Assembly (NCBI GenBank): GCA_004431415.1
Contig: QPMI01000098.1
Coordinates: 116,890 to 180,889, forward strand
Reading direction: 5' to 3'
DNA: 64,000 nucleotides
Source: Cyanophora paradoxa CCMP329
Lineage: Eukaryota; Plantae; Glaucophyta
Each line of letters starts with the position of its first letter. The first letter of the stretch is position 1. A program made the translations under genes and the position numbers. Under the pieces are notes generated by a model. The model searched no databases and was not told the origin of the DNA. It saw only the letters and a program-made list of their open reading frames with translations. Of the stretch, positions 3,531 to 53,220 are shown one piece after another.

Positions 3531-4159
3531 CGCCGGTGAGTTTCGATCAGCGCGCGGCCGTGCAGGTGGCGGGAGCGACGTGTGGGGTTGATCGGGTGAG
3601 CGCGCGCGTCCTCTGACTGCTGCTTTGGAAGCAGTGATCTAGATGCGCTGCTTTGGATGCTCGATGTGCCGAGGTGACGTGCGCTGTGAGCTGGTCTGGG
3701 ACTCCGGGCGCGGTGCGCGGGATGCGCTGCGCCGAGCTGCTGAGCGCGGAGGCGCGCTGTGCTGTCCTTGTCAAGAGGAGAAAGGCTGCGAGGAGCCTTG
3801 CGCGTCGGTACGAAGGCTGCTGAAGGCGGAGGCCAATGGCACGCGAGGCGCGTCGGAGCTGAAAGTGACTGGGGCTGCGAGGCCTGAAAGGATGAAGGCG
3901 CCGCCATCGTATCGCGCTGGATGTGTTTGCTGGCAGATCCAGGTGGCCGCGGCCGCGATGGCGCTCGGAACGCCCGCTCGACTTCGACGTCTGGCAGCTC
4001 TGAGCGCGCTCCACGTTGTGCTCCCCCCCCCCCCCCCCCCCGCCCCACACACACAAGCCCGTACCCCGCGAGCCTTTCGGCGCAGCCGCTGCCACGTGCA
4101 CTTCGCCTTGTCCTTTGAACTGACGCAGCGGAGGCAATGTTGTAGCTGTAAATTCGAAA

Positions 4160-6432
4160 ATGAGCGCCGGTGCTAGTGCCATCAGCGATGGAAGCGTATG
4201 TGGCGGGTGGCCGTCGGAAATCTTTGAGCCCGGCGAGGAGGCGAAGGCGAAGGGCTTCGAGCTGACGTGCGCGGTCTGCTTGCTTGTAATGCGCGATCCG
4301 GTGCGTCGCGATCGGCGCCCGCACACGCGTACTAACTGCAGCCACTGCATTACACAGGTCGAGCTCGGTTGTCCCAACAAGCACGCGCTGTGCCGAACCT
4401 GCGCGGATCATCTGGCGCGGGAAGCCGGCTATCCCTTCGAATACGAGTACATGAAGGCGCAGCTAAAGTGCCCAGTCGACCGCGATGTCATCGACTGCGA
4501 GCGCTTCGAGCCGGCGAAACGCGACGGTCGACGCATCAACGAGCTGCGGGTGCTGTGCGCATCTTGCGACCAGAGCGCGGGCTCAGCTTGAGCTAGCGCT
4601 CGAGCTCTAGCTTTAGCTTAATTAAGCTTGCATCGGCACCTGACTCCGGACGCGGCGCCGTGCGCCTCCACCGCGCAGCTGCCTGTTTCAGGAGCGGGGC
4701 TGCGAGTGGCGGGGCGAGCTGGGCTCCTTCACCGCGCACGCCGCGAGCTGCAGTGCGGTTTGTGCCTCCCAAGCCTTCGTTTAGCTTCGAACACTGACCG
4801 TGAACTGAACTACACGCCCGCGCGCAGATGCCGCAAGGGCAAGGCGCCAGCGACGAGTTCATCGCCCGCCTAACGCGCGAGAAAGGTCCTCGTTCCCTTC
4901 TCTTCTCTTCCCCCCCCCTCCCCCGTGCCCCCCCTCGCCCTGCCCCCCCCCCCCCCCCCCCCCGTGCCCCGTCCACCCCTGTCCCCCTCCCCTTCCCTCG
5001 TCCTTCCCGTCCCCTATTCCCCCCCCCTCCCCCGTCCACCCGTCCCCCCCGCCCCCCCCCCCCCCCCCACCCCACCCGCCCCCACCACACCCGCCTCCCT
5101 TCGCCCCCCGGTCTCCCTCCCCCCGCCTCCCATGCCCGGGCCCCGCCCCATCCCCCCCACCCCTTCCTCCGTCTCCCCTCCCCGCTCTCCCCCCTCCCCC
5201 CCCTCCCCCTGGTCCCCCTCCCCGCCGCCTTCCGTGCCCGGTTTTGACTGCAAGGTTCAGGTACCCTGGAGGGGCAGGTCCGCGACCTCTCGAGGCAGCT
5301 CGAAGCGATGCGGCTGCGGGCGGAGGCGGCTGAGAGGCAGCTCGACAACTCGACAACTGAAGTTGCAGTTGCCCCCGGGCAGAGCGTTGCGAATGCTGTC
5401 AGGCGGGCCGCCGTTGGGCAGACAATCCGACTCGCACCCGGCGTGTGCGCGCTGCTTTCTGATCATGCACATGAGTATCGTATGAGTCTCGTTTCTAAGG
5501 CTAAGTTTTTTAATGTGCCATGTGCCACAGGTACAGGCAGCAGCTGGTGCTGGACAAGGAGGTGCACGTCGTGGGGCCGCGGGAGGCCGTCTTCAAGTGG
5601 GACCAGGGCCCCACGCTGCACTGCAAGGGCCCCGCGGCGCCTAGCGTCAAAGGAATTACGATCCGGAACACTGCGCGGGGGGAGACGGCGGTGTGGATCA
5701 CAGATGGGAGCCGGGTGTTCGTAGAGGGCTGCGACGTCTCCAGCGCTGGCCTCAGTGGCATTTTTGTCTCCGAGGAGGGGACGGCTCCGACGATGCGCGG
5801 TGGGCGCCCCGCCCCGCCCTCCGCCCGGCCTACTGTTGACCGATTCCTCGCTGGGCAGGGAATGTGGTACACGACTGCGGCGGTATTGGCATCTTCTTCC
5901 ACGCGTCGGCGAAGGGCGTCGCGGAGGGCAACGACATCTACGACATCAAAGTGGCGGGCATTCAGATCACTTCCGGCGCTGACCCCATCGTGCGGGGCAA
6001 CAAGGTACATGACGGCAAGCAGGGCGGCATCTTCGTGAATGAGAACGGGCGGGGCACCGTCGAGGGCAACGACGTCTACGGCAACGCGCTGGCAGGCATC
6101 CAGATCAATGACGGCGCTGACCCCGTCGTGCGGGGCAACAAGGTCCACAACGGCAAGTCGGGCGGCATCTGGGTGTTCGATAACGGGCGGGGCACGGTCG
6201 TGGGCAACGACGTCTACGGCAACGCGCTGGCGGGCATCGAGATCAGAACTGGCGCAGACCTCGTGGTGAAGGGTAACCGGTGCGCCCTCGGGCTCCTCTA
6301 CGCCTCCCTCACCCTTCTCTCCCGGCGCTGACATCGATATCCGGCCCCCGCAGGGTGCACGACCAGCAGTACGGGATCTTGGTGAGCGGCAGCAGCAAGG
6401 TGATCGTCTCGGGGAACACAATCGAGCGCATC
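4160..6432 (+). CDS. Host RING/Zn-finger + coiled-coil + right-handed parallel beta-helix (FBXO11/NosD-like repeats) protein, 5' part; interrupted by element 1
   Basis: LTCAVCLLVMRDP..C..H..C..C..CPVDR RING-like motif; repeated GNKVHDGKQGGIFV / GNDVYGNALAGIQI; the last exon runs GNTIERI into the element terminus. Confidence 0.8.
6427..6432 (+). repeat. Left 6-bp target-site duplication CGCATC
   Basis: The same hexamer follows the right TIR at 34274-34279; 6-bp TSDs are typical of Polinton rve integrases. Confidence 0.95.
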
Positions 6433-6740
6433 ACACATATACAACTCCCGGCTTTTAGACCTCGGCTTATTTAAATTGATCTCGTTAGTATATAACCTGT
6501 ATTTATAATATATCTATCGTGAATATGTGTGTGTTTTATCGGTGATTTGTATTTATTTTATCGTGGGTTATAGCTTCTTTTTAATAAAATATGTGAAATA
6601 TGTATAGTTTCTTTGATCTTTATGTATATTCTCGATGAGTAGACTTATATATCTCGTGAGTTTTATTATATTAGAGGTGTGACTCAACTTAGTTTAATTA
6701 TAACTTGCCTCAGTCTAAAAGCCGGGAGTTGTATATGTGT
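6433..6740. other. Terminal fold-back: 28-bp perfect stem (6433-6460 / 6713-6740) enclosing an imperfect AT-rich arm
   Basis: ACACATATACAACTCCCGGCTTTTAGAC at the terminus, with its exact reverse complement at 6713-6740; mirrored at 33966-34273. Confidence 0.9.
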
Positions 6741-6904
6741 GTTTGTTCTGAATTTTCAATATAAAAGCGACGATCACGCGCCGTTTCATCATAAACAACT
6801 ACCATGAGCTGCATGGAACGTTCTGCATGCGGCTCTCTATAAAACAAAGTAGATCTATGATATATTATGATTGATTGTTTTGTATTTTAATTGGTCTTAT
6901 TCAG

Positions 6905-6996
6905 TGTTACAGGTGTTACAGGTTCATCCCAAACTTTGCCCTAGGAGGGGGGTCTTGGTTCCCGAGTTTGGGCAAGACCTGTAACACCTGTAACAA
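6905..6996. repeat. Inverted repeat of a tandem TGTTACAGG dimer around a ~55-bp spacer (inside TIR)
   Basis: TGTTACAGGTGTTACAGGT ... ACCTGTAACACCTGTAACA, with inner CCCAAACT/AGTTTGGG. Confidence 0.85.
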
Positions 6997-7123
6997 CGTA
7001 AACAATTATCATGTGCTGTATGAAACATGTCGCGCGCATCGAGAGTGTGCGGCGCACTGTGCGGCGGACTGTGCGCAACGTAAATGTATGAGTTTCGCAT
7101 CGAGATCGATCGGCTACTCATAG

Positions 7124-7812
7124 GAAACTACGCAATCTATCGCAACTACTCAAAGAAACTACGCAATTTAATACCGGGAACTACTGAAAAGATACCAAAA
7201 CTACGCAACTACGCAACTTTTTGAAAACGTTTGAAATTCGGGGCGGGAAAAATTTAGAAAAGTGTAAAACTTGCGTAGTTGCGTAGTTTTGGTTTCATTT
7301 GCGTAGTTTTGGTTTCGAATTGCGTAGTTTTTCAGGGAAAGTTGAGTAGTTTAAAGTAGTTTATATATTATAAAGTTGTTTCTTATTAATATCAATATGA
7401 TTCTATGATATATACCATGCTTTCTCTACTGAAAAGAGCGCCGGCATGCTACAAAGGGAAGCTACGCAATCGTTTCGCACTGAAACACAACAGTTTTATA
7501 GGCTACACAATAGTCTCGCACTGAGAAGCATGCGGGCAATCGGAGACTACGCAATTTAACGTAACTACGCATGAAAACTACGCAATCTGATCGCTTTTAA
7601 TACCGAAAACTACGCATTTAATACCAAAACTACGCAACTACGCAACTTTCTGAAAAAATTTGAGAGTAGGGGGGGAAAAAAATTAGAGAAGTGAAAAACT
7701 TGCGTAGTTGCGTAGTTTTGGTATTAAATGCGTAGTTTGCGGTATTAAGTTGCGTAGTTTAACATAGGTAGTTGAGTAGTTTAAAGTAGTTTTAATTAAT
7801 TATAAAGTAGTT
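7124..7812. repeat. Two tandem palindromic ACTACGCA iteron-like cassettes (putative origin) in the left TIR
   Basis: Arrays of AACTACGCA face arrays of TGCGTAGTT across a ~50-bp A/T-tract spacer with a G-run; the two units are offset by about 429 bp; mirrored at about 32895-33583. Confidence 0.8.
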
Positions 7813-8170
7813 TATTATTTATCTTATTGTTATCAGTCTGAGACTCTATGAAAATCGATTGACCTTAGTGTGAAACAGTGCGCCCCGCCCACTATGCAAG
7901 ATACATGCAAACTACATGCGAGTTCCATGAAAAACTATAACGATTAAGTCATGTATATATTTCGTATATATGTCCGAACCTCCGTGATAGTGATCCCGCG
8001 CAACTTTCGTTTTTGTTTTTCTTTTTTTTCTCATATCACGACATATACATATATATATCGGCGTCACCGACATATTCGGGGTCATCACATCGCGGCGATT
8101 CCGAAAACATATAGCATGCCACAAAGTAGTATTTTATGTTTTTGTTGTGGTATTCGACCAATCACAAGCC

Positions 8171-8257
8171 ACTAGAAAGGGGGAATACCGATTTACTAGA
8201 AAGGTCTAGAAAGGGGGGCTACCGATTTACTAGAAAGGTCTAGAAAGGGGGGATACC
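8171..8257. repeat. Short tandem repeat, ~35-bp unit (CTAGAAAGG-rich)
   Basis: TACCGATTTACTAGAAAGGTCTAGAAAGGGGGG twice, plus partial copies. Confidence 0.8.
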
Positions 8258-8465
8258 TAAAAACTGACATGTTAACAGGTGTCACATGCAAAAAAAACCA
8301 GAGTTCTAACCAAATTACTTAATTGTTTGTTATTTTTGACTTGGGGCTCTAACTTTTAGTAAGCCTCTGACTCGGTGAGCCGCTGAGCCAACTCACCGGG
8401 CTCGGCGGTCGGCGGTAACCTATACTATGATACTTGCCAGTTGCATTTTTGAAGTTGCAAAGTTG

Positions 8466-8542
8466 GAGTCCCGAGTCCCGAGTCCCGAGTCCCGAGTCCC
8501 GAGTCCCGAGTCCCGAGTCCCGAGTCCCGAGTCCCGAGTCCC
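8466..8542. repeat. Perfect heptamer tandem repeat (GAGTCCC)x11
   Basis: Read directly from the sequence; followed by GACTC. Confidence 0.95.
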
Positions 8543-8910
8543 GACTCGATAACACCGGCGATCGCGACTTCGCGGAGACCCCCTTCCGTTTTCCCCGCAT
8601 AACTTTGGACAGGAAGCCGATCCCGGCGCGCTCTCAATTGCTACGTGCTCATAACTTGCTTCCGGGCATGTTGGTGCTGGTTTGACTAGCTTACGCAACC
8701 GTGGCGCGACGCGCAAGTTCGCCATCGGCACAAGTGCCCGAAAACCGAGGTGTCCGCTACATTCTGAGCGCCGGCGCGCGTTCCCGTGCGTCTCCACTAG
8801 TCATACTTTGCATCCGCGTGCGCATAGAGTAGTGCTACACTGCTACAAAGTGGCGCGGTCTGATTCGCAAAGGGCGCGATTTGGCGGCTACGAAAGCACC
8901 GCGGCGCCTA

Positions 8911-10353
8911 CTACTTTCGTGGTCTCAGAGTCGCTCTTCGATCGCCATTAGCTACCGGCGCTACCGTTGCTACTTTTCTACTACTTCTTAATGTAGCTTT
9001 GGTTTCCGGCGCTTTGTAGCTCTCAGTTTGATTAGAGAACGACTTATACCATCGTTGGCTATTAACGCCGCCGGACAGCTTAGGCTCCGCGGCTGTTACT
9101 AGCCGCTGTAATTCTTTATTTACTCGTTTCTCTTTTTGCACGCGATCCTCTAATAGAGTGCCTTGTGGCACAGTCGCGGCGGCTTCTATGCCCTCTCTAC
9201 GCAATTGCGCATCGACCCGCGCCTCGTCCTTTGCCGCTTCTAATGCATCTACTGTGGGCGCCATTAGGTAATCCACAGCTTGGACAGGCAATAGCTCGTG
9301 GAAGGCAAAGCGACCCTCTACGCGATTGCCGTCCGGATCAGTTAGCATAAACTTATAGCCCTCGCGCGCGGCGACAGTATATACGATCCGGCTCCAATTG
9401 TTACCGCCCTTAGCGAATGGCGTCTTCTCGATGCGTAGCCTTACTGACATGCCCGGCTGAATCTGATCCAAATAAGCTATCGATTTCTTGAATTTCGCAT
9501 CTTCTTTTTGAACTATAAGCTTATAGTGACTCTCGTTGGTCTCGGCAGGCATATAGCCGGTCGCAGAGTGCACCGTATTATTATAGTTATATTCCAGAGA
9601 CGAAAGGATATCTATAAATCGAGCCGTATTATTCGCGATGCAGTAGCTCGTGATCAGCCGCCGCATTTGCTTGTTAAATGCTTCTATGCGCCCTTGCGCG
9701 CGATGGTCGGCTGTGTCCGCTATCTGATGCTCAATAAACTGATTCTCGAAATATTTGCGCATAATATCATTGCGGAATTCGCTTCCCGCATCGCTTTGCA
9801 CTTTGAATATTGGTCTCGGCGCCTTATTTTGCAGCTGAATAAATGCGGCTAAGGTCGACGCCGCGGACTTATCCCGCATTGGGATAATGAACCCGACCCG
9901 TAATGTGTTCTCCATAGCCGTGAGAAAAGCACTGTAATTATCATTATACTTCGAGTAAGCGGGAAAGAATAGCAGATCAATTACGTAGGTATCGAGAGGC
10001 TGTCGGATCGGTATAGCAGGGTCTCGTTTGCGGGATAGGTGCGGCGCATTAATCTGAACGACCTCTTGCCGGCTATACCACTCTTGCAATTTCTTATAAT
10101 TCTCGTCGGGCAGCTCTTGCCGTAGCTTAGTGATCCCTTTGAAACCGGTTTGCGGATCGTAGAATTTACGCGCGATTTTCGATTCCTCCGGGACAGCAAG
10201 GGCTACGGGCACGTCGCGGGGCACCAAAGCCTTTAAATCAGACCGCTTTACTATGCGGCTCTCTTTATTCTCTTTGGGCACGGGGATCGGCAATGTGCTC
10301 CCCTCTAAATCTTGCGATCGTCTTACTATTGGCGGTCTTGACATCCTTGTCAT
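8911..10353 (-). CDS. Retroviral-type (rve) DDE integrase of Polinton type
   Basis: YVIDLL (D), VQSDAGSEF (D), QGRIEAFNK (E), YNNTVHSATGYMP, and the GMSVRL..FAKG..NWS tail typical of Polinton integrases; ATG at 10353 or 10344. Confidence 0.93.
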   Translation of the reverse strand: MTRMSRPPIVRRSQDLEGSTLPIPVPKENKESRIVKRSDLKALVPRDVPVALAVPEESKIARKFYDPQTGFKGITKLRQELPDENYKKLQEWYSRQEVVQINAPHLSRKRDPAIPIRQPLDTYVIDLLFFPAYSKYNDNYSAFLTAMENTLRVGFIIPMRDKSAASTLAAFIQLQNKAPRPIFKVQSDAGSEFRNDIMRKYFENQFIEHQIADTADHRAQGRIEAFNKQMRRLITSYCIANNTARFIDILSSLEYNYNNTVHSATGYMPAETNESHYKLIVQKEDAKFKKSIAYLDQIQPGMSVRLRIEKTPFAKGGNNWSRIVYTVAAREGYKFMLTDPDGNRVEGRFAFHELLPVQAVDYLMAPTVDALEAAKDEARVDAQLRREGIEAAATVPQGTLLEDRVQKEKRVNKELQRLVTAAEPKLSGGVNSQRWYKSFSNQTESYKAPETKATLRSSRKVATVAPVANGDRRATLRPRK

Positions 10354-11436: not shown

Positions 11437-14400
11437 CTAACAGCCGAATGGAAGGCTATGTATGCCGTCGCCTGATATGCAGCGCTTGCCATCGAATTGG
11501 GTCAGCGCTATCCGCTTGCTCTCCAAATCATATAAGTGGTGGCATCGCCGTTGCTTGTTTACTACTGTTACTGTTTTTGTGATCCCGTCAAATAGGCAGC
11601 GCTTAAAGTCGTCGAAATGCACCTCTTTCGAGGCTGTCCCGCTCATTTTTACCTTGTCGTAGCTCTCGGTGCGGAAAGCATATAGCTTCGGTCGCAGCCC
11701 CACATACTCCACTATCTTGACGTCGGGCATCTCATTTTTATATTTACCGGGAACCATCCGGTTCTCGGGACTATTAGGGCAATCTAAATAAGGGCTGATC
11801 GCTCGCATGCCAGCTTCCAGATCCGCGCTCTCTATATACAGACAGAACGAGTCGGTATCGTGGAACAGCAGCTGAGCTTGCGAGAAAGTCGGTCGGATCA
11901 CGTCGTAAAAGAAGCTATAATTATGCAGCTTCGCAGCATCGAGCACATACGCGCCAATCGCAACCGGTTTATCGAGTTTTACGTGTTTACTATACATTTC
12001 GAATGCGACCGCGGTCTCGTTTAATACATTCGTCGCTTTTACCAGTGGGCTCGCGGCGTATTTCTTAAACAGCTTCGTGCTGTTCGCGATCTTTACCACG
12101 GAGCGCCCGCGACACGATTCCAGGCATTTACCGTAAATAGCATTATTCATCAATTTGAAAAAGTCGCTCTCGAATTTATTCCGGGCTTCCTTTCGCAGCT
12201 TCGTGTTCAGATCTATATAGGGCTTCATAAATGCAGCGGTTGCAAACGAGAGCACGCGGTGAATCTTAGTAACTACGATCCCCTTTTTTACCATATAGAG
12301 CAGCATCGGCTGAGAGACCACGTAATTATATTTCGGAGTAAACGAGGCGATCAGCTTCGGATCTTTACTGAGCTTCTCGCCGCTAATCTCCAAAAGCCCA
12401 CGCTGATATTTCCCGAGCATGTCCACAGTAATTACCTCTTTACTCACGATCAGCGGGAAATCGCGATGGTCGCCCTTTAAATAGTCCGGATATGCAAGGT
12501 CGACCTCTATAAATGCACTCCGCCCTACGACCTCGGTAAAAGCTGTGCTTGTGTCGTCCCAGCGATAGTCCCCGACCGGTAAAGGCTGACTGAGCGCATA
12601 GCCATACAGATTATTCGCATCCAATAGCACTATATGTTTATCCTCGCTATTAGCCTCGGCATATCGTGTGGGCATGGTCGCAAAGCCGCCCCTAATTGCC
12701 CTCTCAATAAATTCGTATTGATCCGCATCGCTGATCTGTTCAATTGCGACCCTCGTATGCTTTAACATCGCGTCCCACGATAGTCCCGGTGCGCTCACAT
12801 AATGCGTGGGATCCAGTCCGTATTGCTCATGTGCGAGCATACTGAATTTACCGAATTTTACCATGAGATCATTAACATCGGACGCCTGAAAATCCATGAA
12901 ATTCGATGCATCTATGAATTTGTAAAGTCCCCACTGTAAAGAGAGATACTCGTCGAAATTCTTACTTAGGATCTCGACCCGCAGCTTATCGTCTTGCTGT
13001 GCGATTTTCCTGAATAGAGCATGTCCGCACTCGTCCATCCGATCAATTACCACGGCTACTTTCGTTTGCTTTGAGATCCTCCTATGTAAATTGCATTTTC
13101 GGCAAGCTTTTCCTATATAATCGCCGCTTTGGTGACAGTGATCGCGCACAGGGAAGTTTTCGTGGGTAAACCGCTGATTGCATATATAGCAGTGCTTGGT
13201 GAGCTTATAGGCTTGCTTTTGCGCCTCTGTGAGCGGGATCATAGGCGTGTTGGTAAATAGGGTATTAAGCATCTCGCGGCACAGATCCCCTAACGTGGTA
13301 AACATCTGACCCAGCGGATCCACGCCCTCGAATTCGTGATTTTCAACATGCGAGCCCATAACTACATTAAGTGCCACCGACTTTACCTCTCGCTTGGTTC
13401 TATTTGGTTCATTAGGAACCGGCACCGACTCCATCTCTACCTTGCAGTAGCAGACAGTAGGAAGCCACACCATTTTCCTTAGGTGTTGCAGTCCGAAAGT
13501 AATAAAGCTTCCGGGCTCCGGGCATTTACCTTTACTCAGCCGCCAATCGATACAGCGATTAGAGTCGGTGTGGCTATCGAGTTTCTCCTGTGATCTAAAC
13601 CGGGACAAACAGGTTTCGCAGTAGAAAATGCGCCCGTCGTTTGCTTTATCAAAGGTGGTCTTTAATAGGCGGCTCAGTGACATGATCGTAATATAGTGAC
13701 CCTGTCCGTTTGCGTCCTCGATCAGCAGCAGGTTTACCTTTGATTTGCGACGCGGATTACTTGACATGTGCAATGGGTAAAAGGTTTGGGTCGCATTGTC
13801 GGCGCCATATATATTAATTGACAGCTCGGGATTATTGTCCTCGAAACGATCGATTATTTGGGCATCGCAAGCCACCGGGAAAGTAATGCCTGAGAAGTCG
13901 AGTTCAGTCAACCACCGCCTATATTGGAACGGATCATTACGTTTGTGTCTGTTTATGTCGTTTCTGTGCAGCCATGCGAGGATAGCGTAATTAAAACAGT
14001 CGTGACCATCGATATTCTTAATATTTACTGTGGCTCGCTTTAATCCAATCCATTCGGGGGTCTCAATGTAGCAACCGCCCATCGGCGCATATGACAAAAC
14101 GGCGACATGTAGCTTATCTAATTTACTGAGCCGGTAGCTGTCGACCTGTATCATCTGTTCATTCATTTGCTGAGCTACACCCACTAACTCAGTGAGAATA
14201 TTGCGCGACCTTGTGATTACGAAATAATCGCTGTAAATGTGTTTGGTGATAAAAACGTTAGGATCACTCACTTTTACGTATCGGCAGATGAATGTAAGGC
14301 GCACCTTAATAGCTTTAAGCTCGTCCAGCCTCTCTTTCAGCCGCCCAGGCAGATTTGCAGCGATGGTAGTGAGAAATTCCACCGGATCTAAGATTATCTG

Positions 14401-14700
14401 TTCATCCGCCTTATAGCTATACCAGGCGTATGCTTTATTCATTGCGAAACCGTCGTCCTCATCGGGTTCTATGACGGCTAAGCGCCGCCCTTCGGTATAG
14501 AAGCGCTCCACATTTTCCAGGCGATTGTAAAGCTCGTCGGCAATATTCGCAAGGTTAGCTAAGCGGGGTTTTCGATCTAAGATCGCCGCCCTCCGATCGT
14601 ATTCGGCTTCGGTGATCTCCCCAGTGACTAAAAGACTACCTAACAAGCCTAATATTTCGTCCTTTTTCTCTTTTATAAGGCGATTAGTTTGGCGGGGCAT
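11437..14700 (-). CDS. polB: Polinton-type (protein-primed family) B DNA polymerase with putative OTU-like, C2H2 and endonuclease VII-like domains
   Basis: Polymerase motifs LLDANNLYG, FKLMNNAIYGK, HDTDSF, GKYKNE, GLRPKLYA; CETCLSRFRSQEKLDSH; CYIC...VRDHCHQSGDYIGKACRKCN. Confidence 0.93.
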   Translation of the reverse strand: MPRQTNRLIKEKKDEILGLLGSLLVTGEITEAEYDRRAAILDRKPRLANLANIADELYNRLENVERFYTEGRRLAVIEPDEDDGFAMNKAYAWYSYKADEQIILDPVEFLTTIAANLPGRLKERLDELKAIKVRLTFICRYVKVSDPNVFITKHIYSDYFVITRSRNILTELVGVAQQMNEQMIQVDSYRLSKLDKLHVAVLSYAPMGGCYIETPEWIGLKRATVNIKNIDGHDCFNYAILAWLHRNDINRHKRNDPFQYRRWLTELDFSGITFPVACDAQIIDRFEDNNPELSINIYGADNATQTFYPLHMSSNPRRKSKVNLLLIEDANGQGHYITIMSLSRLLKTTFDKANDGRIFYCETCLSRFRSQEKLDSHTDSNRCIDWRLSKGKCPEPGSFITFGLQHLRKMVWLPTVCYCKVEMESVPVPNEPNRTKREVKSVALNVVMGSHVENHEFEGVDPLGQMFTTLGDLCREMLNTLFTNTPMIPLTEAQKQAYKLTKHCYICNQRFTHENFPVRDHCHQSGDYIGKACRKCNLHRRISKQTKVAVVIDRMDECGHALFRKIAQQDDKLRVEILSKNFDEYLSLQWGLYKFIDASNFMDFQASDVNDLMVKFGKFSMLAHEQYGLDPTHYVSAPGLSWDAMLKHTRVAIEQISDADQYEFIERAIRGGFATMPTRYAEANSEDKHIVLLDANNLYGYALSQPLPVGDYRWDDTSTAFTEVVGRSAFIEVDLAYPDYLKGDHRDFPLIVSKEVITVDMLGKYQRGLLEISGEKLSKDPKLIASFTPKYNYVVSQPMLLYMVKKGIVVTKIHRVLSFATAAFMKPYIDLNTKLRKEARNKFESDFFKLMNNAIYGKCLESCRGRSVVKIANSTKLFKKYAASPLVKATNVLNETAVAFEMYSKHVKLDKPVAIGAYVLDAAKLHNYSFFYDVIRPTFSQAQLLFHDTDSFCLYIESADLEAGMRAISPYLDCPNSPENRMVPGKYKNEMPDVKIVEYVGLRPKLYAFRTESYDKVKMSGTASKEVHFDDFKRCLFDGITKTVTVVNKQRRCHHLYDLESKRIALTQFDGKRCISGDGIHSLPFGC

Positions 14701-15354: not shown

Positions 15355-15440
15355 TGTGTTGTCAGTATATACAATCAGAGAAAGGCTTATATACCTTTGT
15401 CAAATTTTGAGAATGGCACGATATATAGTATACAAAATAA

Positions 15441-15710
15441 TAAACTACTTAATTAATATAATAAACTACATGAAACTACTTGACTTTCCTTGAAACACTA
15501 CGCAACTTGAAACCAAAACTACGCAATTAATACCAAAACTACGCAACTACGCAACTTTTGCGCTTTTCAGAATTTTTGCCGCCCCGAATCTCAAACCTTT
15601 TGCAGAAAGTTGCGTAGTTGCGTAGTTTTGGTATTAAATGCGTAGTTTCCAGTATTAAATTGCGTAGCTTCGCTATGTAGTTGCGTAGTTACTAAAAAAT
15701 GATGTAGTTA
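15441..15710. repeat. Internal copy of the ACTACGCA palindromic cassette directly after the helicase stop codon (putative origin)
   Basis: ACCAAAACTACGCAACTACGCAACTT...CCGCCCCGAA...AAGTTGCGTAGTTGCGTAGTTTTGGT, closely matching about 33340-33590 of the TIR. Confidence 0.85.
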
Positions 15711-15729: not shown

Positions 15730-18144
15730 TTATGCTTCAATATCGTCCTCATCTTCGTCTTCGAACTGTGTCTTGGCGATCTTAGTGAGCCCCTTATAAA
15801 CTCGCTTCGACTTCCCTTTAATTGTAGTCACAGTCGATTCAATCTTGAATGTTTCGAGCACTTTGTTACTGATAGTGCGAGTGGTAACCTTTGTCTTGAT
15901 ATCGTAGCTTCGCATCATTTCCGCGCAAGCTTTGAATACCTCATCGCAGGCAACATGGGCGCCCTTCTCATCTGATGGTTTGTAGTTTTCGCGCAGATAG
16001 GAACCCAGCTTATCGCTGTCGTCGAGATATTTGGCGCTATGCTCGATGACAGATTGCGGCGGGTTTTGCAGGATCTCTTTTACTTTGCCAGTAGCGAGCA
16101 TATCGATGAGAATCTGAATATTTGCCCGCTTGTATTCATTTTTCTCGTCGCCCTCAAACATTTCCATGAGAGTTTCGTCCGCTTTCTTCTCTCCGGCTTT
16201 GGGATTAGGTGAGTAAACAGAGCGGAATGGGATCGATCTGAACCGACGCTTAATAGCTTTGTCGGGCTTTTCGATTTCCAGATTATTGTTGCACAGGATC
16301 ACCATAGTAAACCGAGGCTTGAAATCAATAGGATCCTTGAAAAGTCCTCGGGCTGTGCAGAGCTCGCCACCTGTCAGTGTCTTCATCATACCGCATAGAA
16401 GCTTGTCGCCATCATTAGGCTCGTTTGCATGGGTAAGCCGGACACCTTGCTTATTAGCAAGCTCGGGAATCGGGCTATTTGCTTTGTGGACTTGTGTGAG
16501 CAAAGTAATGCTAATCGGGCGAGCATAATCACCGAATGTCTCTTGCATAAACGTTTCAATCACACTCTTTCCATTAGCACCGACACCTGTGAATAGATAG
16601 AACGTTTGCAGGTCGGTTTTACCTGTGAGTGCATATGCATAGAGGCTGATCAGGTAATTGTAGAGTTCCATATCTCCGCCACAGATATCCAAATAAATGT
16701 CTTTCAGTCTTTTAACCTTTGCCTCATCAACTTCCTCGCAGTAATCAAAGCCGACAGTCTTGCTCACCATATCTTCCGTCGTCCCCTTGCGGAAAGTCAT
16801 ATTATTTAAATCAAACACGCCATTAGTAAACCCCACAATATTGGGAACTGTGTCCAGAGTCGCCATAAAGTCATCGTCTTGCAGCTGTGTGATAATATGC
16901 GGTTCCAGTGACTTTTGATACGGTGTATTCTGAATCCTCTTATGAATTGCCAGCAACATGTTGGCGCTCTTCTCAGCTTTTTCCTTCACAAGATCATCTC
17001 CACTTGCCCTGAGAGCATTGGAAAGATGATAGCCCGCCCTCTTAGAGAACCACTGTGCCACATGCTCGGGGATCTTAGAAAGTAGCGACTTCTCCGTTTT
17101 ATCATATTTCCAAATACCATTTTCGGGGTTCAGGTTAAACCAGACCTTATTTGAATATTTCGTGGTCGCTTTCAGGATCTTGGCGCAGATGATTGCAACA
17201 GGATAATGGGCACCTTCAACTGAAACGGTCTTGTCAATGAGAGTATTAATTTCTAAATGGTGCTTCTCTTCCTCGGTCAGCTCTATGTTAACCGAGAACT
17301 CTTTCGGCTCGCAGTTCTCGCTATAACTCTTCACAATATACTCGTTATACTTGCCATCTCGCTTTTTCTTCACCCACCAGTTATTGGAATCGTGGGATTC
17401 ATCGCAGCAGGGACACAGGAACCCCTTGTTAGCCGAATTAAAGTCAAAGCCCTCATCGCGGCGTGCATAGATGTTTGGGAATAGGAACCCCATCCCACAC
17501 AGCCCGGTAATAATAGCAGCTTCGGTATTATCCTTGCTCGAATTTCCCGCTTTCGGCTGTGGATTATTGGCATGCTTGTAATCGTAGTTCTCGATAATCC
17601 ATTTACGGAAAGCGTCGGAGGGCTCATTAAACTTGCACGACGATGCCCACGGCTTAATTACCCAGGTCTTATTAGGGCTTGGGCATACATTGAGAAGTCC
17701 CGCAGTGCCAGTGCCAGTGATGGTTTTGAGGTCGACCTTCTTGTATCCCTTAAAAGCCGGCGCGCTATCTGTGATTTTCAGCTTATCGAACTCATCAGGG
17801 CGTCGAAAGAATACATGGTAGCCCTTACGAGTCTTTTCGAGTGGCTGATGGGCATCGAAATCATCGGGAAACATCTCAACGAATTTCTGATAGGTTTCCT
17901 CATCGTCGAAATCGACGACCATCATCGAATTCGACAGCAGAATGCCCCAATTAGTGAACTGATTGGACTTAAAGGCTTCGTCGTATCGTTCCCAGTTCCA
18001 AACACCGCCTTTATGGGTGTAGGCGGGCTTTTTAACCTCGTCTTTCATGGGAATAATCGTGTTTTTCGACAAGGTCTCATCGCCACGCAGCCAGTCAGCG
18101 AGCTCTTGGAGTAAAGTCTTTTGTTTCAACGTCATCTTTGCCAT
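15730..18144 (-). CDS. Primase-polymerase (AEP/Prim-Pol) fused to a D5-like superfamily 3 helicase
   Basis: N-terminal NWGIL...VVDFD...TRKGYHVFF; Zn-binding CPCC..H..C; D5_N FTNGVFDL; Walker A GVGANGKS, Walker B-like ANEP, motif C ILCNN, AIKRR; likely ATG at 18144. Confidence 0.92.
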   Translation of the reverse strand: MAKMTLKQKTLLQELADWLRGDETLSKNTIIPMKDEVKKPAYTHKGGVWNWERYDEAFKSNQFTNWGILLSNSMMVVDFDDEETYQKFVEMFPDDFDAHQPLEKTRKGYHVFFRRPDEFDKLKITDSAPAFKGYKKVDLKTITGTGTAGLLNVCPSPNKTWVIKPWASSCKFNEPSDAFRKWIIENYDYKHANNPQPKAGNSSKDNTEAAIITGLCGMGFLFPNIYARRDEGFDFNSANKGFLCPCCDESHDSNNWWVKKKRDGKYNEYIVKSYSENCEPKEFSVNIELTEEEKHHLEINTLIDKTVSVEGAHYPVAIICAKILKATTKYSNKVWFNLNPENGIWKYDKTEKSLLSKIPEHVAQWFSKRAGYHLSNALRASGDDLVKEKAEKSANMLLAIHKRIQNTPYQKSLEPHIITQLQDDDFMATLDTVPNIVGFTNGVFDLNNMTFRKGTTEDMVSKTVGFDYCEEVDEAKVKRLKDIYLDICGGDMELYNYLISLYAYALTGKTDLQTFYLFTGVGANGKSVIETFMQETFGDYARPISITLLTQVHKANSPIPELANKQGVRLTHANEPNDGDKLLCGMMKTLTGGELCTARGLFKDPIDFKPRFTMVILCNNNLEIEKPDKAIKRRFRSIPFRSVYSPNPKAGEKKADETLMEMFEGDEKNEYKRANIQILIDMLATGKVKEILQNPPQSVIEHSAKYLDDSDKLGSYLRENYKPSDEKGAHVACDEVFKACAEMMRSYDIKTKVTTRTISNKVLETFKIESTVTTIKGKSKRVYKGLTKIAKTQFEDEDEDDIEA

Positions 18145-20008: not shown

Positions 20009-20920
20009 TCAAAATTTACCCAATTTCTTTGCAAATTTTGGGCGGCGCTTTTCTTGGTATGCCAGCAATAGATTGGGGTCTTTAAGTAGGTCGGCTTCGA
20101 TTATTCGTTTGGTGGATCGCTTTAAGGTTGCGACGTTTCCACTCACAGGCTTCGTAATATCGGTGGTTTGGGGTTGGTCACCATTTACCGCGCCCGACGT
20201 CGGTTTTACCGGCTGTTTACCAGCGGTCTTTATGTCGTCCGCCGCTTTTTTAAAGAAGCGCTTGAATTTATATTCGTCGGGCACCGGATCAGCCTTGCCA
20301 ACAGAGAATTCCAGGCTATATTTCGCATTGTTTACCACGATCACCTGATAGCTGTGACTGTATTCGGTCATCACCTTCTCGAACCACCGCTTTTCGTATG
20401 GATTAAACTCGTCCTCGGCGCTCTCCATCTCCTTTCTATTCGGCAATGAGAACAGGAATATATATTCGGCGTTTACTCTGAGTGTCGGCGAGATCTTCGT
20501 GAGTTTCTGTGACAAAATCCACACGGACACAAACAGATGGCGTCCAGCCGTGAAAAGACGATTTAATATAGGCTCACCCTTTCCTGACATCGATAGACTC
20601 GGATTATCAATAAAATCGTCCAGCACAATTAACAGGTTACCGACTTTCTCATTTTTCTTGATCCTCTCCTTGCGTTTCTCTATTATATTGTCGATCAGCT
20701 TATGGTCGAAATCCTCATACAGATACGATGTGACATTGTCGTATTGATGATTCCAGATCGTGGAGGCGAATATCATCACCGAATCTATCTTGTCCTCATT
20801 GTGGTAAAGCAGGTATTTCAAAAACACTGACTTCCCAGTTGCTGTTTTGCCCACAAAAACGGCTCGATTTGGGAAATCCAGGCTTCCCGGGTCAAACTCA
20901 CTCAGATCTTGTATATCCAT
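20009..20920 (-). CDS. A32-like (FtsK/HerA) DNA packaging ATPase
   Basis: Walker A VFVGKTATGKS, Walker B LIVLDD, GRH..VSVWILSQ, R.NAEY; likely ATG at 20920. Confidence 0.95.
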   Translation of the reverse strand: MDIQDLSEFDPGSLDFPNRAVFVGKTATGKSVFLKYLLYHNEDKIDSVMIFASTIWNHQYDNVTSYLYEDFDHKLIDNIIEKRKERIKKNEKVGNLLIVLDDFIDNPSLSMSGKGEPILNRLFTAGRHLFVSVWILSQKLTKISPTLRVNAEYIFLFSLPNRKEMESAEDEFNPYEKRWFEKVMTEYSHSYQVIVVNNAKYSLEFSVGKADPVPDEYKFKRFFKKAADDIKTAGKQPVKPTSGAVNGDQPQTTDITKPVSGNVATLKRSTKRIIEADLLKDPNLLLAYQEKRRPKFAKKLGKF

Positions 20921-20971
20921 TTCCCTTATAAGAAACATATAAAAATTACGAAACGCCACAGCCCTCATTCC

Positions 20972-22420
20972 TCATGCCGATATTCTACTGAGACCGTTGG
21001 CATTCATTACAAGGATATTGTGGCAGTAAGCCGAAATCTGAACACTGACCTTCGACCAGGTGGCGAGGGGTGTGCCATTGGGTGTGAGGATTAGGAAGCT
21101 CGACGCTGATTGCGTTAGATCGACGTAGCCAGTCGCCTTCTCACCTTTGAGCGCCGCTTTACCATCGAGAGCAAAGCAGAAGCCAGTGTAAATGGGGCGC
21201 TTGTTGCTATCGATCCAGTTAGTCATCTTGAATTTATCGGCGAGCTCCATAGCCGCGGATTGCAGCGGGACACCAGTGTTGGAATATAGGTAATTGTTGT
21301 TATTTAGAACTTGCATCACGACATTATCATCGAACGCAAGGGTGCGGACAGTAGAGTGCCCTCCTTTATTATCGCCGAGTGTGTTTTCGTCGCGAACCTT
21401 GACAACAAGTGCGTAAACAAGTCCCGAAATTTGAGATAGTGACAGGCGGAGACCAGAGCCGAGAGCAAGACCGGTATAATCCGCAAACTGAATATCAGTG
21501 TAGGGGATGGCGATGCCAGAGGTCTTAACACGAGTAATGATTTCGCCCATCGTTTCCTCATCGATGTTAACAGCATCCATAATAATACGAGGGGTCGTCA
21601 TTTCCAGATTCGCAAGAGCAGGTGTAGGTGTGAGAGCCGCACTATCGAAAATCGCAGTGGCATTAGGGTGAGCTAAGGTCTTAATATTTCCGAAAGCAGC
21701 CGCAACAGCAAGCGTCGTCTCGCCATCAGTAGAATTGGCAGCAGTAATTGCAGTCGTGTTATTCTGAGCGTAAACGCCAGGAACCGCCGCAGTTTCGAGC
21801 AGCGCAGGGGTTTGGAAATATACTTCGACCGCGATTTCGGATGGGAGCGCACCGATGGGCACGCCAGCATCGAGGAAGCTCGGAATTCGCATGGTAAAAA
21901 TGCCGCCAGCTTGGTTGCCGCCCTCTACCTTCGGTCCGAGATGTAGCCCATGCTTGCGCTTCTTTTGCTCGAATTCAGCCGGAGAGTTAGCGAGGAAGGC
22001 GTAATCTACCAGTCGCTCAGCGGGAATAATTTGCTCATACGACCCGTATTTAATGCTGACTCGCTGAACAAACGATCCAGGAAGCCCGCGGACGAATCCA
22101 GTATTGAATAGATCAGCCGAGCAGTCAGCAGAGGTCTTGGCGATGGCAGTCAGCGCCTTCGCCGATGGAATGGTAACTTGGAGGCTAATACCATTGCACC
22201 AATTGTAGCGAGGGAGATAGAAGACCACACGAGTGGTAGCACCAGTAGAGGAGAACAGATTGCCGGGATCCGCAATTGGGAGCACCTCAACACGAGAAGG
22301 CTTGAATTGTTTATCAACGCCCACAATAAATCCGCGATCCAAAAGCATGCTCTTGTAATCCTCCGGGGTTTCCAGGACGGATTTGAGCGTGAGGCGGGAA
22401 AGCGAGGTCGTGGGATCCAT
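20972..22420 (-). CDS. Major capsid protein (double jelly-roll, PLV type)
   Basis: 482 aa and beta-rich; lies between the ATPase and pentons; FVQRVSIKYG..EQII, IPSFL..GVPIGAL..I.VEVYF and C-terminal ISAYCHNILVM fit the DJR-MCP pattern. Confidence 0.78.
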   Translation of the reverse strand: MDPTTSLSRLTLKSVLETPEDYKSMLLDRGFIVGVDKQFKPSRVEVLPIADPGNLFSSTGATTRVVFYLPRYNWCNGISLQVTIPSAKALTAIAKTSADCSADLFNTGFVRGLPGSFVQRVSIKYGSYEQIIPAERLVDYAFLANSPAEFEQKKRKHGLHLGPKVEGGNQAGGIFTMRIPSFLDAGVPIGALPSEIAVEVYFQTPALLETAAVPGVYAQNNTTAITAANSTDGETTLAVAAAFGNIKTLAHPNATAIFDSAALTPTPALANLEMTTPRIIMDAVNIDEETMGEIITRVKTSGIAIPYTDIQFADYTGLALGSGLRLSLSQISGLVYALVVKVRDENTLGDNKGGHSTVRTLAFDDNVVMQVLNNNNYLYSNTGVPLQSAAMELADKFKMTNWIDSNKRPIYTGFCFALDGKAALKGEKATGYVDLTQSASSFLILTPNGTPLATWSKVSVQISAYCHNILVMNANGLSRISA

Positions 22421-32798: not shown

Positions 32799-34273
32799 GC
32801 ATGTATCTTGCATAGTGGGCGGGGCGCACTGTTTCACACTAAGGTCAATCGATTTTCATAGAGTCTCAGACTGATAACAATAAGATAAATAATAAACTAC
32901 TTTATAATTAATTAAAACTACTTTAAACTACTCAACTACCTATGTTAAACTACGCAACTTAATACCGCAAACTACGCATTTAATACCAAAACTACGCAAC
33001 TACGCAAGTTTTTCACTTCTCTAATTTTTTTCCCCCCCTACTCTCAAATTTTTTCAGAAAGTTGCGTAGTTGCGTAGTTTTGGTATTAAATGCGTAGTTT
33101 TCGGTATTAAAAGCGATCAGATTGCGTAGTTTTCATGCGTAGTTACGTTAAATTGCGTAGTCTCCGATTGCCCGCATGCTTCTCAGTGCGAGACTATTGT
33201 GTAGCCTATAAAACTGTTGTGTTTCAGTGCGAAACGATTGCGTAGCTTCCCTTTGTAGCATGCCGGCGCTCTTTTCAGTAGAGAAAGCATGGTATATATC
33301 ATAGAATCATATTGATATTAATAAGAAACAACTTTATAATATATAAACTACTTTAAACTACTCAACTTTCCCTGAAAAACTACGCAATTCGAAACCAAAA
33401 CTACGCAAATGAAACCAAAACTACGCAACTACGCAAGTTTTACACTTTTCTAAATTTTTCCCGCCCCGAATTTCAAACGTTTTCAAAAAGTTGCGTAGTT
33501 GCGTAGTTTTGGTATCTTTTCAGTAGTTCCCGGTATTAAATTGCGTAGTTTCTTTGAGTAGTTGCGATAGATTGCGTAGTTTCCTATGAGTAGCCGATCG
33601 ATCTCGATGCGAAACTCATACATTTACGTTGCGCACAGTCCGCCGCACAGTGCGCCGCACACTCTCGATGCGCGCGACATGTTTCATACAGCACATGATA
33701 ATTGTTTACGTTGTTACAGGTGTTACAGGTCTTGCCCAAACTCGGGAACCAAGACCCCCTCCTAGGGCAAAGTTTGGGATGAACCTGTAACACCTGTAAC
33801 ACTGAATAAGACCAATTAAAATACAAAACAATCAATCATAATATATCATAGATCTACTTTGTTTTATAGAGAGCCGCATGCAGAACGTTCCATGCAGCTC
33901 ATGGTAGTTGTTTATGATGAAACGGCGCGTGATCGTCGCTTTTATATTGAAAATTCAGAACAAACACACATATACAACTCCCGGCTTTTAGACTGAGGCA
34001 AGTTATAATTAAACTAAGTTGAGTCACACCTCTAATATAATAAAACTCACGAGATATATAAGTCTACTCATCGAGAATATACATAAAGATCAAAGAAACT
34101 ATACATATTTCACATATTTTATTAAAAAGAAGCTATAACCCACGATAAAATAAATACAAATCACCGATAAAACACACACATATTCACGATAGATATATTA
34201 TAAATACAGGTTATATACTAACGAGATCAATTTAAATAAGCCGAGGTCTAAAAGCCGGGAGTTGTATATGTGT
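32799..34273 (-). repeat. Right terminal inverted repeat (1475 bp)
   Basis: Reverse complement of 6433-7908. Confidence 0.95.
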
Positions 34274-34390
34274 CGCATCTCGGACCCATCCTACGCGCCC
34301 TGCGGCGGCGTGAAGGTTCGCGAAGGCTGCACCTCAATACGGCAAGGAAACACGTTCCGCCATGATTATGATGATGATGATGATCAATAA
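34274..34390 (+). CDS. Severed 3' end of the host RING/beta-helix gene (begins with the right TSD CGCATC)
   Basis: Joined across the TSD it reads GNTIERI-SDPSYAPCGGVKVREGCTSIRQGNTFRHDYDDDDDQ*, in frame. Confidence 0.8.
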   Translation, partial: RISDPSYAPCGGVKVREGCTSIRQGNTFRHDYDDDDDQ

Positions 34391-34496
34391 CTCTCGCCGA
34401 ACGATCGTTTTGCGTGCTTGTGTATTGAAATAGAAGTTTCAAAGTGCGCGCCCCTGGGCCCGTGCTGCTTCTCGCACAATGGAATCCGGATCCGCG

Positions 34497-51371: not shown

Positions 51372-51444
51372 ACACATATGAATATTCATATTTTAATCCC
51401 TCGGCGTTCCGCCTCAGGATTAAAATATGAATATTCATATGTGT
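51372..51444. other. Terminal hairpin of element 2: 28-bp perfect stem with CTCGGC-GTTCC-GCCTCA head
   Basis: ACACATATGAATATTCATATTTTAATCC (51372-51399) pairs with GGATTAAAATATGAATATTCATATGTGT (51417-51444). Confidence 0.92.
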
Positions 51445-51829
51445 GATTCGATGTTATATCAATAAAATCGATTAATTTATTTGAATTTTCACATGAATTT
51501 TCATATTTTTAAATGCATTTTCAATTAATTTAATCGATTTTATATCGATAAACTCGATTAATCGATATTGTATCTTAATTGTAGTTAATCGGAATTATAT
51601 CTATAACTTCGATTAATCTTAATTGAATCCTAAATGAATCTAATCGGAATTATATCAATAAATTCGATTAAATCATGTTCTTTTCCGATTAAATCAATTA
51701 AATATTTAAGTTTGTTACCATAAGTGGTCTAAGTTGACTCACTTTTCATAAACAATTTGAACTCTTAGTCTCCTTGAATTTCTTAAGATGACTCAACTTA
51801 GTCAACTTAGTCAACTTTGTTACCATAAT

Positions 51830-52550: not shown

Positions 52551-52671
52551 ATATAAATATTATATAATAGGGGGAATCAAGGGGAATGTTGAGTTTTACT
52601 GTAATGAAATCGAACATTATTCCAATTACTTACAATAGAATTCTATCGTAAAAAATGTCCGGAATCCGGAA

Positions 52672-52747
52672 AATAATCATTGTATAAAGCTACTGTAGTG
52701 AAAGGATATATTATATCTTTTTGTTACAGTAGCTTATCAATGTTATT
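52672..52747. terminator. Long AT-rich hairpin just downstream of the AdoMetDC gene
   Basis: AAGCTACTGTA (52687-52697) / TACAGTAGCTT (52725-52735), with inner GATATA/TATATC and outer CATTG/CAATG. Confidence 0.5.
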
Positions 52748-52792
52748 GTTAGAAAACAAAGGAATCCTTTAGAAATTCATTATAGAAACCCA

Positions 52793-53191: not shown

Positions 53192-53220
53192 TAAGAATAC
53201 CTTAGAAAAATTAATTAATC

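What the first reader, a model, noticed from the sequence alone, without database searches (positions are those of the whole stretch)
6433..6740. 308-nt terminal arm folds back imperfectly, like an unfolded hairpin telomere
Seen: beyond the 28-bp stem the two halves still align by eye as reverse complements (ACCTGTATTTATAATATATCT vs ACCTCTAATATAATAAAACT), with many T:T and G:T oppositions on a T-rich strand. Both TIRs carry the same isomer. Known: incompletely paired AT-rich hairpins with flip/flop isomers are poxvirus/asfarvirus telomeres, and unfolded terminal palindromes result from parvovirus terminal resolution. Inference: the free genome may have covalently closed or self-priming ends. 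The segment is also bounded by two copies of the 28-bp end, so it could invert or move as a MITE-like unit.
Basis: partly seen in the sequence, partly recalled or inferred. Interest (0 to 1): 0.72.

Follow-up and report, generated by a model that had tools for sequence, protein, structure and literature searches.

The report
Capped hairpin end of Polinton-like virus
Each end of this integrated DNA virus carries a perfect 28-base-pair fold-back stem with a fixed mismatched cap, which a second element nearby shares; the stem likely lets the end prime its own copying, while the long middle part is decayed and does not fold.

Summary
6433-6740 is the outer end of a 1,476-bp TIR of a 27.8-kb Polinton-like virus (6-bp TSD, rve-like integrase, pPolB, primase-helicase, capsid). 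The 28-bp stem is real. The inner 252 nt folds no better than shuffles (z +1.3). Its outer 90 nt per arm are a decayed palindrome (50 of 88 aligned pairs; z 3.8), and its T:T and G:T oppositions match composition. Contigs of four runs show no flipped isomer for this family, so a poxvirus-like flip/flop telomere or MITE is not supported. New here: a second element at 51372 has a 28-bp stem differing at 12 positions, all compensated, with the identical cap CTCGGC...GCCTCA around a 5-nt rather than 240-nt core. One of its junction contigs is flipped or solo. The polymerase lacks proofreading residues and has Asp where 104 of 114 homologues carry the presumed terminal-protein linking Ser. Best reading (0.45): a 3' fold-back, self-priming end kept in one orientation. 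Main rival (0.3): protein priming with fold-back repair. A 2026 preprint already reports terminal palindromes in PLVs and virophages, so this is a new variant.

The parts
6427..6432 (+). Left target-site duplication CGCATC (right copy 34274-34279)
   Evidence: Flanks printed; the host reading frame runs in frame across the empty site; same left junction in 4 of 4 runs laid
6433..6460 (+). Outer arm of the 28-bp terminal stem; element terminus 5'-ACACATAT
   Evidence: pair probability 0.99
6461..6466 (+). Cap, outer half CTCGGC (3-nt bubble side plus GGC)
   Evidence: identical in the second element at 51400-51405
6467..6550 (+). Decayed palindrome, left arm (about 55% complementary to 6623-6706)
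   Evidence: not stably folded
6551..6622 (.). Central 72-nt spacer without self-complementarity above shuffles
6623..6706 (+). Decayed palindrome, right arm
6707..6712 (+). Cap, inner half GCCTCA; on the 3'-terminal strand the cap reads TGA opposite GAG (T.G plus tandem G.A/A.G)
   Evidence: identical in the second element at 51411-51416
6713..6740 (-). Inner, inverted copy of the terminal 28 bp; no TSD beside it
   Evidence: most other family copies differ at 6727
6433..7908 (+). Left TIR (1,476 bp), also holding inner palindromes at 6905-6995, 7194-7293 and 7607-7738
8911..10353 (-). rve-like DDE integrase (weak matches)
   Evidence: Pfam rve E 0.014, below cut-off; PHROG transposase E 4e-6
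11437..14700 (-). Polinton-type family B polymerase: TP-like domain (residues 84-203), vOTU Cys235 kept, endonuclease VII motif kept, exonuclease degenerate and partly deleted, Asp187 in the column of the presumed linking Ser
15435..15685 (.). Third, internal copy of the TIR iteron palindrome, next to the primase-helicase gene (candidate internal origin, inferred)
15730..18144 (-). Prim-Pol / D5-like primase-helicase
20009..20968 (-). A32-like packaging ATPase
20972..22420 (-). Probable major capsid protein, NCLDV-like by language-model features
   Evidence: Atlas score 0.98 to clusters with Capsid_N in 10-30% of members, recognition value below the tool's threshold; no Pfam or PHROG hit; single-sequence fold unusable
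32799..34273 (-). Right TIR (1,475 bp) with the same terminal arm at 33966-34273, same isomer
51372..51444 (+). Terminal hairpin of a second element: 28-bp stem, same cap, GGCG/CGCC stem and 3-nt loop (GAA on the 3'-terminal strand)
   Evidence: high-depth contigs start at 51372

Best explanation
The segment is the end of an integrated Polinton-like virus whose 3'-terminal strand likely folds back through the 28-bp stem and would prime DNA synthesis on the inner copy, with the conserved asymmetric cap predicted to mark one arm and so likely keep a single orientation; the 240-nt middle is a decayed palindrome that does not fold. Shown: element boundaries, the perfect stem reaching the last base, the same stem length and cap in a second element, the unfolded middle, one dominant orientation among integrated copies, and the altered polymerase motifs. 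Inferred: (1) strand displacement or primase-helicase replication frees the 3'-terminal strand; (2) the stem forms and places the 3'-OH on a template that continues inward; (3) the proofreading-deficient polymerase extends it, and re-copying of the outer arm from the inner arm keeps the two arms identical while the loop drifts; (4) an unidentified nick reopens the end for the integrase, the polymerase's endonuclease VII-like domain being one candidate; (5) CTC versus TGA at the stem top tells outer from inner arm.
For: The two elements have 28-bp stems with 16 of 28 bases alike, all 12 differences compensated in the partner arm, and 12 of 12 cap bases identical, though their cores are 240 and 5 nt. 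This points to a maintained or self-copied structure, not an accident. On the 3'-terminal strand the cap gives T.G plus tandem G.A, and the second element has a GAA triloop; sheared G:A in GNA loops of 3' telomere overhangs is described in PMC5449611, while the stability of tandem G.A pairs is recalled. The polymerase has Asp187 where 104 of 114 homologues have Ser, in the loop where the linking residue is placed. It has Lys420 where 112 of 114 have the Exo I Asp, and lacks 94 columns including Exo III. A primase-helicase is present. The Halocafeteria preprint finds terminal palindromes preferentially in elements with non-pPolB replication genes and proposes hairpin priming. Some parvovirus ends occur in one form only (PMC8242256). 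One flipped-or-solo junction occurs in the sister family.
Against: Simple hairpin transfer predicts flip and flop in equal amounts, yet no flip was seen for this family: X3 record 18 spans 6567-6760 unbroken at depth 842 against 748 further inside, and there is no strand-changing joint in 4 of 4 runs (contigs drop rare forms, 32 of 467 pieces shown). The TP-like fold is intact (model pLDDT 89.5) and vOTU Cys235 is kept. Asp-Ser-Tyr is conserved in the one close relative, so Ser188 or Tyr189 may still prime. The terminal ACAC repeat suits slide-back protein priming (mechanism). No nicking enzyme was identified. Most other copies carry a change at 6727 inside the inner arm, and no matching change at 6446 was listed, though near-end differences are filtered out. 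No outside relative with this end was found, so conservation rests on two elements of one genome. The energy model separates the two strands by only about 1 kcal/mol.
Confidence: 0.45

Rival explanations
1. Protein priming is retained, with Ser188 or Tyr189 as the linking residue. The fold-back serves as a platform and repair template for the single-stranded 3' end left by primase-helicase replication or by excision, as in Streptomyces telomere end-patching.
For: TP-like fold and vOTU Cys kept, Asp-Ser-Tyr shared with P0002; acidic residues beside linking residues are noted in the pPolB paper, though not always present; terminal ACAC repeat; single orientation; iteron palindromes in the TIRs and beside the primase-helicase; fold-back repair of truncated TP-primed telomeres shown in Streptomyces (PMC5449611). 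No nuclease is needed.
Against: The Ser and both Gly of the conserved loop are replaced. That paper states no such repair is reported for pPolB replicons such as adenovirus and phi29. Copying would have to stop exactly after 28 nt.
Confidence: 0.3
2. The two arms are inverted protein-binding sites acting in duplex DNA (integrase or origin binding); the cap is a sequence signal and no single-strand folding is needed.
For: The TIR holds several other inverted iteron pairs with 52-54-nt spacers; the cap is conserved in sequence; the 252-nt spacer makes a large loop.
Against: Twelve compensated differences with conserved complementarity rather than conserved sequence in the stem; in the second element the arms are only 17 nt apart and form a compact hairpin (z -13 to -14).
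Confidence: 0.12
3. An unfolded poxvirus- or asfarvirus-like covalently closed hairpin telomere of 308 nt with flip/flop isomers.
For: Residual complementarity centred on the stem axis; AT-rich (27% GC); one flip-or-solo junction in the sister family.
Against: The inner part does not fold. Fifteen variants from other copies gain 4 and lose 5 Watson-Crick pairs against this copy's partner bases. No common flip; no resolvase found among the ORFs scanned; integration with a 6-bp TSD needs open ends.
Confidence: 0.07
4. A one-off fold-back accident, or a MITE-like unit bounded by two element ends.
For: The decayed palindrome does look like an old fold-back duplication; the preprint names accidental annealing as an alternative; a solo unit is one reading of X10 record 15.
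Against: The same stem length and cap recur in a second family; there is no TSD at the inner copy; solo units can arise by deletion between direct-repeat arms.
Confidence: 0.06

Closest known systems
Terminal palindromes of Halocafeteria seosinensis virophages and PLV subtype 4 (bioRxiv 10.64898/2026.07.28.741278; passages and section 7 read, figure and supplements not seen)
   Same: Palindrome inside the TIR directly at the TSD, rve integrase, hairpin priming proposed.
   Different: There a 52-nt palindrome is shown, the screen allowed a gap of at most 10 nt, and the link is with non-pPolB genes. Here the spacers are 252 and 17 nt, an asymmetric cap is shared by two families, and the element has a pPolB with altered motifs. 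The text read mentions no cap or flip test.
Polintons/Mavericks and Polinton-like viruses (10.1101/2024.03.18.585575, passages and section 6; PMC12747079, passages)
   Same: TIRs, 6-bp TSD, rve-like integrase, TP-vOTU-palm polymerase, A32 ATPase, capsid genes.
   Different: Exonuclease degenerate (mavirus pPolB also lacks it), linking loop altered, added primase-helicase, no maturation protease found among the ORFs scanned, internal inverted copy of the terminus.
Streptomyces linear-replicon telomeres (PMC5449611, passages)
   Same: A 3'-terminal strand that folds back on an inner copy; G.A-type motifs on that strand; one orientation; template for end repair.
   Different: Bacterial Tap/Tpg system without a family B polymerase; several tight palindromes, not one stem with a long loop; not integrated.
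Parvovirus terminal hairpins (PMC8242256, passages; MVM bubble mechanism recalled)
   Same: 3' fold-back primer with a mismatch bubble; some ends occur in a single form.
   Different: ssDNA viruses with an HUH nickase; none was found here; this genome is 27.8 kb, integrated, with its own polymerase.
Poxvirus flip/flop hairpin telomeres (PMC8956199, abstract and Introduction)
   Same: AT-rich imperfect inverted repeat at the genome end.
   Different: Those hairpins are mostly paired, covalently closed, made by a Holliday junction resolvase and present as two isomers; here the middle does not fold and one isomer dominates.

Membership tests
Polinton-like virus / Polinton | TIRs with 6-bp TSD | tested here: met
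   1,476/1,475-bp TIRs, CGCATC on both sides
Polinton-like virus / Polinton | Protein-primed-type family B polymerase | tested here: met
   Pfam DNA_pol_B_2 E 7e-12; best solved-structure matches are phi29 polymerase; adintovirus and bidnavirus-like polymerases in BFVD
Polinton-like virus / Polinton | Retrovirus-like (rve) integrase | tested here: inconclusive
   Pfam rve E 0.014 below cut-off; PHROG transposase E 4e-6; the 6-bp TSD fits
Polinton-like virus / Polinton | Capsid protein and packaging ATPase | tested here: met
   Pox_A32 E 1e-9; capsid only by Atlas features, 0.98, a lead rather than an alignment
Polinton (strict) | Maturation protease gene | tested here: not met
   No protease family hit among the 16 larger ORFs of the element scanned; filed as PLV rather than strict Polinton
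Protein-primed replicon | TP domain with a linking Ser/Tyr between helix 2 and strand 4, near Gly or Pro | tested here: inconclusive
   Secondary-structure order fits; the conserved Ser column holds Asp and both Gly are lost, but Ser188 and Tyr189 are adjacent. That this Ser is the linking residue is inferred from position.
Protein-primed replicon | Protein covalently bound to 5' ends | not testable with these tools
   needs free viral DNA
Poxvirus/asfarvirus hairpin telomere | Mostly base-paired hairpin over its length | tested here: not met
Poxvirus/asfarvirus hairpin telomere | Flip and flop isomers both common | tested here: not met
   No strand-changing joint; unbroken contig through the inner stem at full depth; integrated copies only, rare forms dropped
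Poxvirus/asfarvirus hairpin telomere | Covalently closed ends on free genomes | not testable with these tools
   no raw reads of free DNA were offered
Parvovirus-type rolling-hairpin end | 3' end paired to a template that continues inward | tested here: met
   stem reaches the terminal base; geometry only
Parvovirus-type rolling-hairpin end | HUH (Rep/NS1) nickase | tested here: not met
   no such hit among the ORFs scanned; several short ORFs have no match at all
MITE | Own TSD on both sides of the short unit | tested here: not met
   CGCATC left, GTTTGT right of 6433-6740
MITE | Many solo copies at independent sites | tested here: inconclusive

The most novel reading that the evidence does not exclude
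A lineage of integrating Polinton-like viruses has given up protein priming for parvovirus-like hairpin self-priming while keeping a disabled-proofreading pPolB and a retroviral-type integrase. A conserved asymmetric bubble at the top of a 28-bp stem picks the active arm, and the loop can grow from 5 to 240 nt without harm.
Probability: 0.3. Interest if true: 0.8.

Novelty: new variant of a known kind. Interest (0 to 1): 0.5.

Why it matters
How Polintons and PLVs copy and restore their ends after leaving the host chromosome has not been tested; the standing models are a panhandle with protein priming and, since 2026, hairpin priming. This window offers a natural experiment: two families with different stems, the same cap and very different loops, plus a polymerase whose priming loop and proofreading site are changed. 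A 73-nt oligonucleotide and one purified enzyme could decide between self-priming and protein priming. Palindrome screens with a small gap limit would miss such ends, so they may be commoner than reported.

Tried and rejected
No whole genome is held, so solo copies could not be counted directly. No RNA holder was listed. End-motif scans found no relative: viral contigs gave 1 hit, a phage tail region, and 27 hits without an inverted arm (best 17 of 28); metagenome contigs gave 1 hit without an arm. All were rejected as chance. No loci for the capsid or for P0001 in viral contigs; no capsid homologue; one integrase homologue. Among 42 pPolB loci, stems of 18 bp or more were internal; I read 3, and the one near a contig end (L069) is an inverted duplication within the polymerase coding sequence, likely an artefact. 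Most of these contigs probably lack element ends, so the blank says little. A 14-mer shared between the spacer and the second element's TIR (6680-6693, 51789-51802) has E 0.06, like two other 14-mers: rejected. Rfam gave only below-threshold matches on other TIR hairpins and none on 6433-6740. The promoter scan was at chance level (4 vs 2.5 +/- 1.7). The single-sequence capsid fold was unusable (pLDDT 31). PDB sequence search with the polymerase: 0 hits. No polymerase relative above 30% identity in the second search. Lower temperature did not make the middle fold. Earlier scan findings: none returned. Apart from the Halocafeteria preprint, none of the passages read described terminal palindromes in PLVs, and none described the cap. 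Most subscription journals are not covered, and bioRxiv supplements (end sequences of the Halocafeteria elements) were not seen and could hold similar caps. One search gave nothing on tandem G.A pairs.

Full report
CONTEXT. The segment is the first 308 bp of a 27,841-bp AT-rich element (6433-34273) in GC-rich eukaryotic DNA. The host is not known; a microbial eukaryote is my inference from GC content and short introns. The TIRs are 1,476 and 1,475 bp, identical but for one gap, with CGCATC duplicated on both sides. The interrupted host frame continues across the empty site. The element encodes a family B2 polymerase, a Prim-Pol/D5 primase-helicase and an A32 ATPase, a weakly matched rve-like integrase and a probable NCLDV-like capsid protein. 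It is a Polinton-like virus.

THE OBSERVATION. The 28-bp stem is perfect and reaches the terminal base; the 28-mer occurs 4 times in the window. The inner 252 nt folds no better than shuffles on either strand (z +1.3). It does align with its own reverse complement above chance under 3 of 4 global scoring schemes, with z 3.8-3.9 peaking at the stem axis and exceeding all 30 AT-rich control windows. The signal sits in the outer 90 nt of each arm (50 identities, 38 mismatches) and is absent from the central 72 nt. T:T and G:T oppositions equal the composition expectation (27 vs 27.2, 20 vs 19.0). Pair probability drops from 0.99 in the stem to 0.5-0.6 in the next 6 nt and to 0.10 or less beyond nt 73, at 37, 25 and 15 C. 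The middle is a decayed palindrome, not a working paired hairpin.

OTHER COPIES. Nineteen DNA runs of one organism hold about half of the sampled words. I laid 4 of them on 6300-7300; all are contigs. The same left junction is in 4 of 4. TIR contig depth is 13 to 21 times the flank depth (a rough sign of many copies, not a copy number). No joint changes strand. X3 record 18 runs from 6567 to 6760 through the inner stem at depth 842, against 748 further inside the TIR, which leaves no room for a common flipped isomer among these copies. Limits: contigs drop rare forms, only 20 nt lie beyond the stem in that record, and 32 of 467 pieces and 24 of 49 loose ends were shown. Fifteen listed variants in the spacer gain 4 and lose 5 Watson-Crick pairs against this copy's partner bases, as drift would. 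None was listed in 6461-6533 or 6675-6726. Most copies differ at 6727 in the inner arm; a partner change at 6446 was not listed, but differences near contig ends are filtered, so compensation is untested.

A SECOND ELEMENT. An AT-rich element with related fibre-like genes begins at 51372 and runs out of the window; high-depth contigs start at exactly that base. Its end is again a perfect 28-bp stem. The two stems share 16 of 28 bases, including the first 8, and all 12 differences are matched in the partner arm. Both stems are topped by CTCGGC and GCCTCA, 12 of 12 identical, enclosing 240 nt in the first element and 5 nt in the second. On the strand whose 3' end is the terminus, the cap reads TGA opposite GAG, and the short version closes with a GAA triloop. 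Sheared G:A pairs in GNA loops of 3' telomere overhangs are described in PMC5449611; that tandem G.A pairs are stable in DNA is recalled. In 4 runs laid on this end (32 of 248 pieces, 23 of 26 loose ends shown), X10 record 15 covers 51406-51444 with one difference and continues 1,387 nt into other DNA; a loose end at the same place occurs in X1 and X3. That junction joins the terminal arm to the other side of the loop. It is either a flipped end or a solo 73-bp unit, which deletion between direct-repeat arms could also leave. The breaks in the main contigs do not fully explain where this record ends, so it is a lead from one contig.

THE POLYMERASE. Against 114 homologues (all but 36 of the 150 listed, minus the closest, P0002), the protein keeps the polymerase motifs, vOTU Cys235 (113 of 114) and the endonuclease VII residues. 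It has Lys for the Exo I Asp (112 of 114) and lacks 94 well-occupied columns including Exo III. The model from 57 sequences is confident (pLDDT 89.5), and its best solved matches are phi29 polymerase. Residues 84-203 show the strand and helix order of PRD1-like terminal proteins. In the loop where that paper places the linking residue, 104 of 114 homologues have Ser, mostly flanked by Gly; this protein and P0002 (46% identical) have Asp-Ser-Tyr with Asp in the Ser column. Priming may be lost, or shifted to Ser188 or Tyr189. The two proteins are one lineage, not two independent cases.

MECHANISM. The fold puts the terminal 3'-OH on a template that continues into the genome, so it can prime synthesis (geometry shown, use inferred). 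Copying the outer arm from the inner one would explain perfect arms beside a decaying loop. The cap differs between the arms (CTC outside, TGA inside) and could keep one orientation or steer the integrase to the outer arm (inferred). I put self-priming at 0.45, protein priming with fold-back repair at 0.3, duplex binding sites at 0.12, a poxvirus-like telomere at 0.07, and accident or MITE at 0.06. The weak points of the preferred reading are the missing flip isomers and the unidentified nick.

COMPARISON AND NOVELTY. The Halocafeteria preprint (passages; section 7) already reports palindromes inside TIRs next to TSDs in four virophage subtypes and one PLV subtype, proposes hairpin priming, and notes a link with non-pPolB genes; its screen allowed gaps of at most 10 nt. 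Terminal palindromes in such elements are therefore known. Not found in the 8 searches and the passages read: a conserved asymmetric cap, the compensated fixed-length stem, a long decayed spacer, or the pairing with an altered pPolB. The element works most like a parvovirus 3' hairpin or a Streptomyces fold-back telomere, but is a member of neither: no HUH nickase and no Tap/Tpg system were found. It fails the poxvirus tests of pairing and flip/flop, and the MITE test of its own TSD. No outside relative of the end was found, so the case rests on two families in one organism. Verdict: real feature, new variant of a recently described kind, interest 0.5.

Noticed in passing
window 51372-64000: Second AT-rich element with the same TIR plan (terminal hairpin, AT-rich spacer, two 390-bp repeats with inverted iterons), SAM decarboxylase, patatin-like and S74 chaperone ORFs, and fibre-like genes broken into many short frames; terminal contigs at depth about 4,000-4,900 against 28-63 for the flank.
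   Followed up: partly
window 51364-51372: The second element's insertion looks polymorphic: flank contigs in X1, X10 and X19 run on into other DNA after 51364, while X10 and X19 also hold the filled junction; the other allele lacks the 7 nt before the terminus.
   Followed up: no
window 51407 (loose end in X3, X10, X19): A contig matches the arm and cap up to 51407, then continues for 255 nt or more into unrelated DNA: possibly a third family with a long loop, or an insertion in the loop.
   Followed up: no
window 6905-6995, 7194-7293, 7607-7738, 15527-15637: Inverted iteron pairs with 47-54-nt spacers; the ACTACGCA type recurs inside the element next to the primase-helicase gene (candidate internal origin). 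Other copies share 6905-6995 but differ outside it, and some skip 6823-7080, so the TIRs are modular.
   Followed up: partly
window near 6950: The only difference between the two TIRs is a 1-nt indel, in or beside the G run in the loop of the 6905-6995 palindrome.
   Followed up: no
window 51376-51391: The second element's arm holds its own perfect 16-nt palindrome, absent from the first element's arm.
   Followed up: no
window 5800-6432 and 34274-34393: The element interrupts the last exon of a host gene with beta-helix-like repeats (label from sequence pattern, recalled), about 37 codons before its stop.
   Followed up: partly
window 8172-8273 and 8420-8725: Short tandem arrays just inside the left TIR (34-nt units; a 21-nt unit that reads as a repeated heptapeptide).
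   Followed up: no
L056 4674-4823; L051 11574-11709; L037 5759-5827: Internal long-stem palindromes in other pPolB contigs (28, 26 and 33 bp), not terminal; possibly origins.
   Followed up: partly
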